This document shows positions 34,566 to 45,700 of a DNA stretch of 64,000 nt, piece by piece. The position numbers were made by a program, and so were the translations under genes. Origin of the DNA: the human T2T-CHM13v2.0 reference genome, Homo sapiens; the NCBI RefSeq assembly GCF_009914755.1, contig NC_060927.1; one strand, 5' to 3'. The notes under the pieces were generated by a model. The model saw only the letters and a list, made by a program, of their open reading frames with translations. It made no database searches and was not told where the DNA came from. The first letter of the stretch is position 1. Each line of letters begins with the position of its first letter.

Positions 34566-37500
34566 TTTTTTTAATTCATTATTATTATACTTTAGGTTTT
34601 AGGGTACAGGTGCACAAGGTGCAGGTTAGTTACATATGTATACATGTGACATGCTGGTGCGCTGCACCCACTAACTCGTCATCTAGCATTAGGTATATCT
34701 CCCAATGCTATCCCTCCCCCCTCCCCCAACCCCACAACAGTCCCCAGAGTGTGATGTTCCCCTTCCTATGTCCATGTGTTCTCATTGTTCAATTCCCACC
34801 TATGAGTGAGAATATGCGGTGTTTGGTTTTGTGTTCTTGCGATAGTTTACTGAGAATGATGATTTCCAATTTCATCCATGTCCCTACAAACGACGTGAAC
34901 TCATCATTTTTTATGGCCGCATAGTATTCCATGGTGTATATGTGCCACATTTTCTTAATCCAGTCTATCATTGTTGGACATTTGGGTTGGTTCCAAGTCT
35001 TTGCTATTGTGAATAATGCCACAATAAACATATATGTGCATGTGTCTTCATAGCAGCATGATTTATAGTCGTTTGGGTATATACCCAGTAATGGGATGGC
35101 TGGGTCAAATGGTATTTCTAGATCTAGATCCCTGAGGAATTGCCACACTGTCTTCCACAATGGTTGAACTAGTTTACAGTCCCACCAACAGCGTAAAAGT
35201 GTTCCTATTTCTCCACATCCTCTCCAGCACCTGTTGTTTCCTGACTTTTTAATGATCGCCATTGTAACTGGTGTGAGATGGTATCTCACTGTGGTTTTGA
35301 TTTGCATTTCTCTGATGGCCAGTGATGGTGAGCATTTTTTCATGTGTTTTTTGGCTGCATAAATGTCTTCTTTTGAGAAGTGTCTGTTCATGTCCTTCGC
35401 CCACTTTTTGATGGGGTTGTTTGTTTTTTTCTTGTAAATTTGTTTGAGTTCATTGTAGATTCTGGATATTAGCCCTTTGTCAGATGAGTAGGTTGTGAAA
35501 ATTTTCTCCCATTTTGTAGGTTGCCTGTTCACTCTGATGGTAGTTTCTTTTGCTGTGCAGAAGCTCTTTAGTTTAATTAGATCCCATTTGTCAATTTTGG
35601 CTTTTGTTGCCATTGCTTTTGGTGTTTTAGACATGAAGTCCTTGCCCATGCCTATGTCCTGAATGGTAATGCCTAGGTTTTCTTCTAGGGTTTTTATGGT
35701 TTTAGGTCTAACATGTAAGTCTTTAATCCATCTTGAATTGATTTTTGTATAAAGTGTAAGGAAGGGATCCAGTTTCAGCTTTCTACATATGGCTAGCCAG
35801 TTTTCCCAGCACCATTTATTAAATAGGGAATCCTTTCCCCATTGCTTGTTTTTCTCAGGTTTGTCAAAGATCAGATAGTTGTAGATAGGTGGCGTTATTT
35901 CTGAGGGCTCTGTTCTGTTCCATTGATCTATATGTCTGTTTTGGTACCAGTACCATGCTGTTTTGGTTACTGTAGCCTTGTAGTATAGTTTGAAGTCAGG
36001 TAGTGTGATGCCTCCAGCTTTGTTCTTTTGGCTTAGGATTGACTTGGTGATGTGGGCTCTTTTTTGGTTCCATATGAACTTTAAAATAGTTTTTTCCAAT
36101 TCTGTGAAGAAAGGCATTGGTAGCTTGATGGGGATGGCGTTGAATCTATAAATTACCTTGGGCAGTATGGCCATTTTCACGATATTGATTCTTCCTACCC
36201 ATGAGCATGGAATGTTCTTCCATTTGTTTGTATCCTCTTTTATTTCGTTGAGCAGTGGTTTATAGTTCTCCTTGAAGAGGTCCTTCACATCCCTTGTAAG
36301 TTGGATTCCTAGGTATTTTATTCTCTTTGATGCAATTGTGAATGGGAGTTCACTCATGATTTGGTTCTCTGTTTGTCTGTTGTTGGTGTATAAGAAGGCT
36401 TGGGATTTTTGTACATTGATTTTGTATCCTGAGAATTTGCTGAAGTTGCCTATCAGCTTAAGGAGATTTTGGGCTGAGACAATGGGGTTTTCTAGATATA
36501 CAATCATGTCGTCTGCAAACAGGGACAATTTGACTTCCTCTTTTCCTAATTGATTACCCTTTATTTCCTTCTCCTGCCTAATTGCCCTGGCCAGAACTTC
36601 CAACACTATGTTGAATAGGAGTGGTGAGAGAGGGCATCCCTGTCTTGTGCCCGTTTTCAAAGGGAATGCTTCCAGTTTTTGCCCATTCAGTATGATATTG
36701 GCTGTGGGTTTGTCATAGATAGCTCTTATTATTTTGAGATACGTCCCATCAATACCTAATTTATTGAGAGTTTTTAGCATGAAGCGTTGTTGAATTTTGT
36801 CAAAGGCCTTTTCTGCATCTATTGAGATAATCATGTGGTTTTTGTCTTTGGTTCTGTTTATATGCTGGATTACATTTATTGATTTGCGTATATTGAACCA
36901 GCCTTGCATCCCAGGGATGAAGCCCACTTGATCATGGTGGATAAGCTTTTTGATGTGCCGCTGGATTCGGTTTGCCAGTATTTTATTGAGGATTTTTGCA
37001 TCAATGTTCATCAAGGATATTGGTCTAAAATTCTCTTTTTTGGTTGTGTCTCTGCCCGGCTTTGGTATCAGGATGATGCTGGCCTCATAAAATGAGTTAG
37101 GGAGGATTCCCTCTTTTTCTATTGATTGGAATAGTTTCAGAAGGAATGGTACCAGTTCCTCCTTGTACCTCTGGTAGAATTCGGCTGTGAATCCATCTGG
37201 TCCTGGACTCCTTTTGGTTGGTAAGCTATTGATTATTGCCACAATTTCAGCTCCTGTTATTGGTCTATTCAGAGATTCAACTTCTTCCTGGTTTAGTCTT
37301 GGGAGAGTGTATGTGTCAAGGAATTTATCCATTTCTTCTAGATTTTCTAGTTTATTTGCATAGAGGTGTTTGTAGTATTCTCTGATGGTAGTTTGTATTT
37401 CTGTGGGATCGGTGGTGATATCCCCTTTATCATTTTTTATTGCGTCTATTTGATTCTTCTCTCTTTTTTTCTTTATTAGTCTTGCTAGCGGTCTATCAAT

Positions 37501-42748: not shown

Positions 42749-45700
42749 TACTTATACTTTAAGTTCTAGGGTACATGTGCACAATGTGCAGGTTTGTTAC
42801 ACATGTATACATGCACCATGTGGGTGTGCTGCACCCATTAACTCGTCATTTACATTAGGTATATCTCATAATGCTATCCCTCCTCCTCCCCCCACCCCAT
42901 GACAGGCCCCAATGTGTGATGTTCCCCTTCCCGTGTCCAAGTGTTCTCATTATTCAATTCCCACCTATGAGTGAGAACATGCAGTGTTTGGTTTTTTGTC
43001 CTTGCGCTAGTTTGCTGAGAATGATGGTTTCCAGCTTCATTCATGTCCCTACAAAGGACATGAACTCATCCTTTTTATGGCTGCATAGTATTCCATTTAT
43101 GGCTGCATAGTATTCCATGGTGTATATGTGCCACATTTTCTTAATCCAGTCTATCATTGTTGGACATTTGGGTTGGTTCCAAGTCTTTGCTATTGTGAAT
43201 AGTGCTGCAATAAACATACGTGTCCATGTGTCTTTATAGCAGCATGATTTATAATCCTTTGGGTATATACCCAGTAATGGGATGGCTGGGTAAAATGGTA
43301 TTTCTAGTTCTAGATCCTTGAGGAATTGCCACACTGTCTTCCACAATGGTTGAACTAGTTTACAGTCCCACCAACAGTGTAAAAGTGTTCCTATTTCTCC
43401 ACATCCTCTCCAGCACCTGTTGTTTCCTGACTTTTTAATGATCGCCTTTCTAACTGGTGTGAGATGGTATCTCATTTTGGTTTTGATTTGCATTTCTCTG
43501 ATGGCCAGTGATGATGAGCATTTTTTCATGTGTCTGTTGGCTGCATAAATGTCTTCTTTTGAGAAGTGTCTATTCATATCCTTTGCCCACTTTGTAATGG
43601 GGTTGTTTTATTCTTGCAAATTTGAGTTCTTTGTAGATTCTGGATATTAGCCCTTTGACACATGAGTAGATTGCAAAAATTTTCTCCCATTCTGTAGGTT
43701 GCCTGTTCACTCTGATGGTAGTTTCTTTTGCTGTACAGAAGCTCTTTAGTGTAATTAGATCCCATTTGTCAATTTTGGCTTTTGTTGCCATTGCTTTTGG
43801 TGTTTCAGACATGAAGTCCTTGCCCATGCCTATGTCCTGAATGGTATTGCCTAGGTTTTCTTCTAGGGTTTTTATGGCTTTAGGTCTAACATGTAAGTCT
43901 TTAATCCATCTTGAATTAATTTTTGTATAAGGTGTAAGGAAGGTATCCAGTTTCAGCTTTCTACATATGGCAAGCCAGTTTTCCCAGCACCGTTTATTAA
44001 ATACGGAATCCTTTCCCCATTTCTTGTTTTTGTCAGGTTTGTCAAAGATCAGATGGTTGTAGATGTGTGGTATTATTTCTGAGAGCTCTATTCTGTTCCA
44101 TTGGTCTATATCTCTCTTTTGGTACCAATACCAGGCTGTTTTGGTTACTGTAGCCTTGTAGTATAGTTTGAAGTCAGGTAGCGTGATGCCTCCAGCTTTG
44201 TTCTTTTGGCTTAGGATTGTCTTGGCAATGTGGGCTCTTTTTTGGTTCCATATGAACTTTAAAGTAGTTTTTTCCAATTCTGTGAAGAAAGTCATTGGTA
44301 GCTTGATGGGGATGGCATTGAATCTATGAATTACCTTGGGCAGTATGGCCATTTTCATAATATTGATTCTTCCTATCCATGAGCATGGAATGTTCTTCCA
44401 TTTGTTTGTATCCTCTTTTATTTCGTTGAGCAGTGGTTTATAGTTCTCCTTGAAGAGGTCCTTCACATCCCTTGTAAGTTGGATTCCTAGGTATTTTATT
44501 CTCTTTGATGCAATTGTGAATGGGAGTTCACTCATGATTTGGTTCTCTGTTTGTCTGTTGTTGGTGTATAAGAAGGCTTGGGATTTTTGCACATTGATTT
44601 TGTATCCTGAGAACTTGCTGAAGTTGCCTATCAGCTTAAGGAGATTTTGGGCTGAGACGATGGGGTTTTCTAAATATACAATCATGTCACCTGCAAACAT
44701 GGACAATTTGACTTCCTCTTTTCCTAATTGATTACCCTTTATTTCTTTCTCCTGCCTAATTGCCCTGGCCAGAACTTCCAACACTATGTTGAATAGGAGT
44801 GGTGAGAGAGGGCATCTCTGTCTTCTGCCCGTTTTCAAAGGGAATGCTTCCAGTTTTTGCCCATTCAGTGTGATATTGGCTGTGGGTTTGTCATAGATAG
44901 CTCTTATTATTTTGAGGTACGTCCCATCAATACCTAATTTATTGAGTGTTTGTAGCATGAAGGGCTGTTGAATTTTGTCAAAGGCCTTTTCTGCATCTAT
45001 TGAGATAATCATGTGGTTTTTGTCTTTGGTTCTGTTTATATGCTGGATTCCATTTATTGATTTGCGTATGTTGAACCAGCCTTGCATCCCAGGGATGAAG
45101 CCCACTTGATCATGGTGGATAAGCTTTTTGATGTGCCACTGGATTCGGTTTGCTAGTATTTTATTGAGGATTTTTGCATCAATGTTCATCAAGGATATTG
45201 GTCTAAAATTCTCTTTTTTGGTTGTGTCTCTGCCCGGCTTTGGTATCAGGATGATGCTGGCCTCATAAAATGAGTTAGGGAGGATTCCCTCTTTTTCTAT
45301 TGATTGGAATAGTTTCAGAAGGAATGGTACCAGTTCCTCCTTGTACCTCTGGTAGAATTTGGCTGTGAATCCATCTGGTCCTGGACTCTTTTTGGTTGGT
45401 AAGCTATTGATTATTGCCACAATTTCAGCTCCTGTTATTGGTCTATTCAGCGATTCAACTTCTTCCTGGTTTAGTCTTGGGAGAGTGTATGTGTTGAGGA
45501 ATTTATCAATTTCTTCTAGATTTTCTAGTTTATTTGTGTAGAGGTGTTTATATATTCTCTGATGGTAGTTTGTATTTCTGTGGGATCGGTGGTGATATCC
45601 CCTTTATCATTTTTTATTGCATCTATTTGATTCTTCTCTCTTTTTTTCTTTATTAGTCTTGCTAGCGGTCTATCAATATTGTTGATCTTTTCAAAAAACC

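What the first reader, a model, noticed from the sequence alone, without database searches (positions are those of the whole stretch)
36262..44830. Two neighbouring L1s of different age share a dense set of private ORF2 alleles
Seen: L1-C (young-type 3'UTR) and L1-D (older-type 3'UTR, flanking repeat ~5% diverged) share nine substitutions within ~390 bp. In C they lie at 36262, 36331, 36365, 36397, 36403, 36435, 36450, 36554 and 36652; in D at a constant +8178 offset. L1-B lacks them. In protein they give [16 protein letters not shown] and QTENQ versus [16 protein letters not shown] and QTESQ. C and D also share DLHVRP and KTVWQF elsewhere. Most are not CpG decay. They are interleaved with sites where C and D still differ (gtacattg/gcacattg, tctagata/tctaaata, atttcctt/atttcttt), so this is not one long copy event. 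Inference: repeated very short-tract non-allelic gene conversion between co-oriented neighbours, creating a locus-specific L1 'dialect'. That the alleles are non-consensus rests on recalled L1PA consensus.
Basis: partly seen in the sequence, partly recalled or inferred. Interest (0 to 1): 0.8.

Follow-up and report, generated by a model that had tools for sequence, protein, structure and literature searches.

The report
Gene conversion between two neighbouring L1s
Two dead L1 retrotransposon fragments 8 kb apart in a human intron have swapped a short stretch of sequence, so that they now share a few mutations seen together in no other L1 copy; this is a clean example of a known process, not a new one.

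Summary
The nine shared substitutions exist at the stated places, at a constant +8178 offset, and L1-B lacks them. Only four are truly rare genome-wide. The 36397G+36403G word occurs in C and D alone, against 9,246 copies of the usual word. 36331T is in 16 copies and 36554T in 20, and no third copy has two of these. The other five recur in dispersed copies. The "elsewhere" alleles (KTVWQF, DLHVRP) are ordinary subfamily alleles, in 2,788 and 1,649 copies.

C and D are separate insertions of different subfamilies, about 94% identical. Outside the tract neither is among the other's 40 best scored genome matches. Inside 36199-36411 they are identical for 213 bp and are each other's best or joint-best match.

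The best explanation is non-allelic gene conversion between co-oriented neighbours. Further shared alleles at 36435/36450 and 36554, separated by sites where D keeps its own subfamily's bases, imply a patchy tract or two or three events. Direction is unresolved, with D to C slightly favoured for the main tract.

This process is documented for neighbouring Alus within about 10 kb and for L1s. Read-level and ape-ortholog checks could not be run.

The parts
34554..38023 (-). L1-C: a 5'-truncated L1, 3' end at low coordinates, with a short A-tail. It is flanked by a 10-bp target-site duplication at 34557-34566 and 37997-38006. It carries a perfect 67-bp internal tandem duplication (37763-37829 / 37830-37896). 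A 1027-codon stretch without stops runs 34789-37872 and contains a reverse-transcriptase domain.
42746..46961 (-). L1-D: an older-type 5'-truncated L1 in the same orientation. Its reading frame is broken into four open pieces of 83-677 codons. It is flanked by a 172-bp direct repeat (42577-42748 / 46959-47148) with 9 substitutions.
36199..36411 (.). Main conversion tract in C: 213 bp identical to D. It holds six shared non-consensus alleles (36247, 36262, 36331, 36365, 36397, 36403), three of them rare genome-wide. It is bounded by 36198 and 36412, where D keeps its own subfamily's base.
44377..44589 (.). The same tract in D (offset +8178).
36413..36480 (.). Possible second patch, sharing 36435A and 36450C, with one D-only change at 36436. 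It lies between D-type sites 36412 and 36481. The D counterpart is 44591-44658.
36523..36567 (.). Possible third patch, sharing 36554T (20 copies genome-wide). It lies between the D-only site 36522 and the D-type site 36568. The D counterpart is 44701-44745.
36893..37358 (.). Stretch where D (45071-45536) carries the younger subfamily's bases at seven diagnostic sites (37156-37306), although its closest relatives carry the older ones. This may be a separate C-to-D, or other young L1-to-D, conversion. It is not specific to C, because D lacks C's 37211C.
6582..9836 (-). L1-B: the comparator copy, 96.8% identical to C and of the same dispersed sub-subfamily. It lacks all nine alleles.

Best explanation
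After both elements had inserted independently, homologous repair between the two co-oriented L1 fragments 8.2 kb apart copied a short stretch from one into the other. This is non-allelic (interlocus) gene conversion. The core tract is 36199-36411 in C and 44377-44589 in D, at least 157 bp and at most 213 bp long. It carried one element's accumulated private mutations into the other.

Three to four more shared alleles within about 250 bp to the right are separated by sites where D keeps its own subfamily's bases. So either the heteroduplex was repaired in patches or there were two or three separate events.

Shown: the tract, the rarity of the allele combination, the independent insertions, and the switch of nearest relatives. 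Inferred: the mechanism, the direction (D to C about 60% for the core tract), the number of events, and a timing within roughly the last 7-14 million years, from zero differences in 213 bp at assumed, recalled mutation rates.
For: (1) C and D are independent insertions. Their flanks share only unrelated Alu matches. C has its own 10-bp target duplication. D has its own 172-bp flanking repeat.

(2) C-D divergence is 5.0-7.5% in the 400-bp windows that start at 34754-35754 and 5.3-9.3% in those that start at 37354-37754, but 2.0-3.3% in the windows that start at 35954-37154. In the 36154-36553 window C-B divergence rises to 4.8%, from about 2%.

(3) The longest identical C-D run, 213 bp, lies where the longest D-B run is 68 bp.

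(4) For 36250-36670, C is D's best genome match (98%, next best 96%), and D is among C's joint second-best matches. For the adjoining 35560-36140, neither appears in the other's 40 scored matches, of 2,656 and 4,748 candidates.

(5) The 36397G+36403G word occurs in 2 L1 copies, against 9,246 copies of the usual word. 36331T is in 16 copies and 36554T in 20, and only C and D are in both lists.

(6) Control: alleles shared by B and C, tested by sequence search (not by pattern count), are in at least 39 and at least 16-18 other dispersed copies. The approach therefore does separate subfamily markers from private alleles.

(7) None of the 16 copies chosen without reference to the tract carries the shared alleles, except 36247G in two of them and 36652C in one. 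These were 8 nearest to C and 8 nearest to D in the flanking segment, and 5-7 of the C-like ones cover the tract.
Against: No continuous tract fits all the shared alleles. D keeps older-subfamily bases at 36412, 36481, 36495 and 36568, and has D-only changes at 36436, 36512 and 36522, all between shared alleles. One shared and one D-only site are adjacent (36435/36436).

The direction clues conflict. The density of shared alleles in the core (6 in 213 bp) fits D's private load (about 1.7%) better than C's (about 0.7-1.2%), and 36247G looks like the older type. But 36232A in D looks like the younger type.

Only one assembly was available. No reads, second human assembly or ape ortholog could be examined.
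Confidence: 0.8

Rival explanations
1. Common descent: C and D were both copied from one rare source lineage that already carried the shared alleles, and landed 8 kb apart by chance.
For: The shared alleles are absent from the 16 unbiased relatives, apart from three single occurrences, and their rare combination is found in no other L1 in the genome. That is what a very small sublineage would also show.
Against: Outside the tract C and D belong to different subfamilies. They are about 94% identical there and have different nearest relatives, and neither is in the other's 40 scored matches. The sharing is confined to about 400 bp of more than 3 kb. No third member exists among roughly 9,250 copies. 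The 8-kb proximity would be a coincidence.
Confidence: 0.04
2. Assembly or polishing artefact: bases from one L1 were written into the other when the assembly was built or corrected.
For: None from the tools used here. The idea stays open only because a single assembly was available.
Against: The two copies are 8 kb apart and about 94% identical overall, with unique flanks. From general knowledge, not tested here, long accurate reads resolve such pairs easily. The sharing is patchy, with D-specific bases retained in between, which is not what a block mis-correction would leave.
Confidence: 0.05
3. A third L1, now lost or absent from this genome, donated the stretch to both C and D.
For: It would explain why the direction clues between C and D conflict.
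Against: It needs two conversions with nearly the same borders, plus the loss of the donor. No L1 copy with the 36397G+36403G word exists elsewhere in the genome.
Confidence: 0.05
4. Chance parallel mutation at the same sites in two independent copies.
For: Each single allele does recur independently in other copies: 14 to 38 or more others each for 36331T, 36554T, 36365T and 36262A.
Against: The rare alleles have frequencies of about 0.2% or less each. No other L1 carries the double-G word, against 9,246 copies of the usual word; 36331T is in 14 other copies and 36554T in 18 others. Under independence the joint expectation is below about 1e-9 per pair. The alleles are also clustered within one 213-bp identical run.
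Confidence: 0.01

Closest known systems
Non-allelic gene conversion between neighbouring Alu elements (Aleshin & Zhi 2010, as summarised in PMC8230782 and PMC6598467; passages read)
   Same: Non-diagnostic mutations are shared between nearby copies of a dispersed repeat. The effect is strongest within about 10 kb and falls with distance. The two copies here are 8.2 kb apart and co-oriented.
   Different: The elements here are L1 ORF2 fragments, not Alus. This is a single locus dissected by hand, not a genome-wide statistic.
Gene conversion between L1 copies (conversion between L1PA3 LINEs in long reads, PMC5829575, passages read; repair of a break in a chromosomal LINE by conversion from endogenous LINEs with tracts down to 13 bp, Tremblay et al. 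2000, seen only as cited in PMC1920257)
   Same: One L1 copy is partly overwritten by another through homologous repair, and the tracts are short.
   Different: Those cases are a polymorphic or experimentally induced event. Here the event is fixed in the reference, lies between copies of different subfamilies, and leaves a discontinuous pattern.
Subfamily-diagnostic alleles of a dispersed L1 sublineage
   Same: Two copies share non-consensus bases. This does explain the KTVWQF and DLHVRP alleles, and the alleles shared by B and C.
   Different: The core alleles (36331T, 36397G, 36403G, 36554T) are not found together in any other copy.

Membership tests
Non-allelic (interlocus) gene conversion between dispersed repeats | The two copies are independent insertions at distinct loci, not a duplicated segment | tested here: met
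   The flanks share only unrelated Alu matches. Each copy has its own flanking duplication.
Non-allelic (interlocus) gene conversion between dispersed repeats | A bounded tract of raised identity within otherwise normal divergence | tested here: met
   Divergence is 2.0-3.3% in the windows that start at 35954-37154 and 5.0-9.3% in all other windows. There is a 213-bp identical run.
Non-allelic (interlocus) gene conversion between dispersed repeats | Nearest relatives differ between the tract and its flanks | tested here: met
   (each other's best or joint-best match in the tract) against (neither among the other's 40 scored matches in the flank).
Non-allelic (interlocus) gene conversion between dispersed repeats | Shared derived alleles in the tract that other family members lack | tested here: met
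   This holds for 4 alleles; 5 others recur elsewhere.
Non-allelic (interlocus) gene conversion between dispersed repeats | The pre-conversion state is seen at the orthologous locus in an outgroup, which also gives the direction | not testable with these tools
   No ape or second human assembly is held.
Non-allelic (interlocus) gene conversion between dispersed repeats | Bases confirmed in raw spanning reads | not testable with these tools
   No reads are available.
   Not met for the core alleles. Met only for KTVWQF and DLHVRP (2,788 and 1,649 copies) and for the alleles shared by B and C.
LINE-1 ORF2 fragment | Reverse-transcriptase domain, 3' A-tail and target-site duplication | tested here: met
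   RVT_1 with E 5.8e-47 in C's open stretch. A-tail and 10-bp duplication for C. Thousands of dispersed homologues.

The most novel reading that the evidence does not exclude
The locus records several separate, possibly two-way micro-conversions (tracts of about 45-210 bp) between the same pair of dead L1s, rather than one event. That would make it a natural time series of discontinuous non-allelic conversion, which could be dated step by step in ape T2T assemblies.
Probability: 0.2. Interest if true: 0.4.

Novelty: new member of a known kind. Interest (0 to 1): 0.25.

Why it matters
It is a well-controlled single-locus example showing that neighbouring L1 fragments exchange short tracts. Such exchange carries private mutations between copies and distorts both subfamily assignment and divergence-based dating.

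It also gives a practical warning. Genome-wide counts are needed before calling anything private.

It has no evident functional consequence. Both copies are truncated fragments in an intron of PPM1L.

Tried and rejected
(1) Unusual mutation burst. The shared core alleles are 3 transitions and 6 transversions, against 27:25 for D-private alleles. The Fisher p is 0.47, so the spectrum is not distinctive.

(2) Segmental duplication of C and D with their flanks. Rejected, because the flanks are not homologous.

(3) 'Three-way local dialect' including B. B and C share four alleles absent from my 47-copy panel. The two of these that I tested genome-wide, 35934G and 37211C, are common in dispersed copies, so they are ordinary sub-subfamily markers. 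The panel had been chosen by similarity to the atypical tract and under-sampled C's true relatives.

(4) Recombination-hotspot motif. A search for the 13-mer degenerate hotspot motif (recalled from memory) gave 3 hits in the window, at 3440, 6739 and 63980. None is in or next to C or D.

(5) A 61-nt search around 35141/35151 returned nothing, not even the query itself, so it was uninformative. It was replaced by an exact pattern count.

(6) Naming the subfamilies (L1PA numbers). This was not possible because no Dfam consensus is held. 'Younger' and 'older' rest on nearest-relative identity (98% against 96-97%) and on D's diverged flanking repeat.

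Full report
**What is there.** The window holds four L1 fragments on the minus strand: A (4944-5731), B (6582-9836), C (34554-38023) and D (42746-46961).
- C is 5'-truncated, has a short A-tail, and has a 10-bp target-site duplication at both ends.
- C also carries a perfect 67-bp internal tandem duplication. 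It keeps a 1027-codon stretch without stops that contains a reverse-transcriptase domain.
- D is longer, and its reading frame is broken into four open pieces.
- D is flanked by a 172-bp direct repeat with 9 substitutions (5.2%) and a 16-bp duplication.
- The flanks of C and D share only unrelated Alu matches, so they are separate insertions.
- Overall identity is 93.9% for C-D and 96.8% for C-B.

**Check of the observation.**
- At all nine claimed positions C and D have the same base at offset +8178, and B differs.
- The three interleaved C/D differences exist.

**Are the alleles private?** I first compared C, D and B with 28 other copies from the 40 genome matches scored for C's segment (of 3,377 candidates). 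I then widened this to 47 copies, adding D's matches.
- Panel counts of 47: 36331T, 36403G and 36554T were in 0; 36397G in 2; 36262A and 36247G in 3; 36435A in 4; 36365T in 5; 36450C in 10; 36652C in 18.
- No panel copy had more than 5 of the 17 sites examined.
- In exhaustive pattern counts, the word carrying 36397G+36403G has 5 hits. Two are C and D. The other three are non-L1 DNA that shares only that word.
- The usual word has 9,246 hits. 36554T has 20 hits and 36331T has 16.
- Comparing the two lists by eye, only C and D are in both.

For the other alleles I used reference-based searches, which score only 40 candidates and so give lower bounds.
- 36262A: 38 other copies identical over 68 nt. 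All 40 scored were at 100%, of 702 candidates.
- 36365T: 17 others.
- 36435A+36450C together: 2 others, with 37 more one mismatch away.

The 'elsewhere' alleles are not private at all. The KTVWQF word has 2,788 copies and the DLHVRP word has 1,649. So four alleles are truly rare, and their combination is unique. The rest recur at levels I would expect from independent recurrence or minor subfamily variation; that expectation is my own estimate, not a computed control.

**A control.**
- B and C share four alleles absent from the 47-copy panel, more than any other pair.
- Genome searches show that two of them (35934G, 37211C) are in at least 39 and at least 16-18 other dispersed copies. They are ordinary sub-subfamily markers.
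- This shows that my first panel, chosen by similarity to C's atypical tract, under-sampled C's real relatives. It also shows that the genome-wide test separates markers from private alleles.

**The tract.**
- In sliding 400-bp windows, C-D divergence is 5.0-7.5% in the windows that start at 34754-35754, 2.0-3.3% in those that start at 35954-37154, and 5.3% or more in those that start at 37354-37754.
- In the 36154-36553 window C-B divergence rises from about 2% to 4.8%, while D-B divergence stays at 6.8%.
- The longest identical C-D run is 36199-36411 (213 bp). There the longest D-B run is only 68 bp.
- The second-longest C-D run (36977-37181) lies where all copies are alike.
- For 36250-36670, C is D's best match in the genome (98%, next best 96%), and D is among C's joint second-best matches.
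- For the adjoining 35560-36140, C's best matches are 98% and D's are 96-97%. Neither is among the other's 40 scored matches.

This switch of nearest relative at the tract border, together with the unique allele combination, is the signature of gene conversion.

**Fine structure.** I fetched 16 copies chosen only by similarity to C or D in the flanking segment: 8 of each, of which 5-7 of the C-like ones cover the tract.
- None carries the shared alleles, except 36247G in two copies and 36652C in one.
- Inside 36199-36411, C and D are identical.
- To the right, shared alleles (36435, 36450, 36554, 36652) alternate with two other kinds of site. At 36412, 36481, 36495 and 36568 D keeps the base typical of its own relatives. 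At 36436, 36512, 36522, 36639 and 36647 D has a change of its own.
- Because older-subfamily bases cannot be new mutations, one continuous tract cannot cover all the shared alleles.
- So either one heteroduplex was repaired in patches, or there were two or three events. The data do not separate these.

**Direction.**
- For D to C: six shared alleles in 213 bp fits D's private load (52 private sites in about 3.1 kb, roughly 1.7%) better than C's (roughly 0.7-1.2%). 36247G also looks like an undecayed CpG of the older type.
- For C to D: D has the younger-type base at 36232, where 6 of 8 of its relatives differ.
- I put D to C at about 60% for the core tract.

**A separate block.**
- D carries younger-type bases at seven consecutive diagnostic sites (37156-37306), although the five or six of the eight D-like copies that reach this stretch carry the older ones.
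- For that block C ties for D's best genome match, and B is close behind. This may be a second conversion, into D.
- However, D lacks C's marker 37211C, so C is not proven as the donor.

**Other points.**
- The mutation spectrum of the shared alleles is not unusual.
- No 13-mer hotspot motif lies in or beside C or D.
- Zero differences in 213 bp puts the core event within roughly the last 7-14 million years. This uses assumed germline rates of 0.5-1e-9 per base per year; the rates are recalled and the bound is loose.

**Known context.**
- Passages read in PMC8230782 and PMC6598467 summarise a genome-wide Alu study. Non-diagnostic mutations are shared preferentially between neighbouring Alus, with conversion acting within about 10 kb and falling with distance.
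- PMC5829575 (passages read) reports a conversion between L1PA3 LINEs in long reads.
- PMC1920257 (passages read) cites cell-culture work in which a break in a chromosomal LINE was repaired by conversion from other LINEs, with tracts as short as 13 bp.
- PMC13192797 (one passage read) lists gene conversion among the processes that blur old L1 history.
- I did not find, and did not search exhaustively for, a genome-wide distance analysis specific to L1. Supplements were not consulted.

**Verdict.** It is an instance of a known process.

**What stays open.** Artefact and direction cannot be settled without reads and ape orthologs.

Noticed in passing
42577-42748 and 46959-47148: D is flanked by a 172-bp direct repeat that abuts both ends of the element. 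It has 9 substitutions (5.2%), a 16-bp tandem duplication in the right copy, and a 2-bp indel. No clear A-tail lies between the left copy and the L1 3' end. This is far longer than a usual L1 target-site duplication.
   Followed up: partly
37763-37829 and 37830-37896: C has a perfect 67-bp internal tandem duplication near its 5' end. D has a single copy of this stretch.
   Followed up: no
34789-37872, minus strand: C keeps a 1027-codon stretch without stop codons that includes the reverse-transcriptase domain. D's frame is broken into four open pieces. Both are 5'-truncated fragments.
   Followed up: partly
36370-36373 (and homologous places in L055, L056, L058, L060, L066): The same 4-bp TGTT deletion, in a short TGTT/TGTC repeat, is seen in 5 of 15 otherwise unrelated L1 copies, with a partial form in a sixth. 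It is probably a recurrent slippage site, because a 4-bp loss cannot be a property of a working ORF2.
   Followed up: no
35934, 37211 (C); 9206-9268 (B): B and C, 28 kb apart, share four alleles absent from a 47-copy panel. The two tested genome-wide, 35934G and 37211C, mark a dispersed sub-subfamily, with at least 39 and at least 16-18 other copies. This is a caution about small panels.
   Followed up: yes
36959-36960: B, C and D all have C at 36959, where 39 of 39 panel copies and all 13 covering unbiased copies have T. C reads CG there, and B and D read CA. Only C's own 66-nt word is at 100% in the genome. B and 15 others are one mismatch away over the full 66 nt, and 2 more over slightly shorter matches. 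The origin is unresolved.
   Followed up: partly
45071-45536 (D), equal to 36893-37358 in C coordinates: D, otherwise of the older type, carries younger-type bases at seven consecutive diagnostic sites. Its best genome matches there are younger-type copies at 98%, with C tied for first. This may be a second conversion into D, or a naturally mosaic source.
   Followed up: partly
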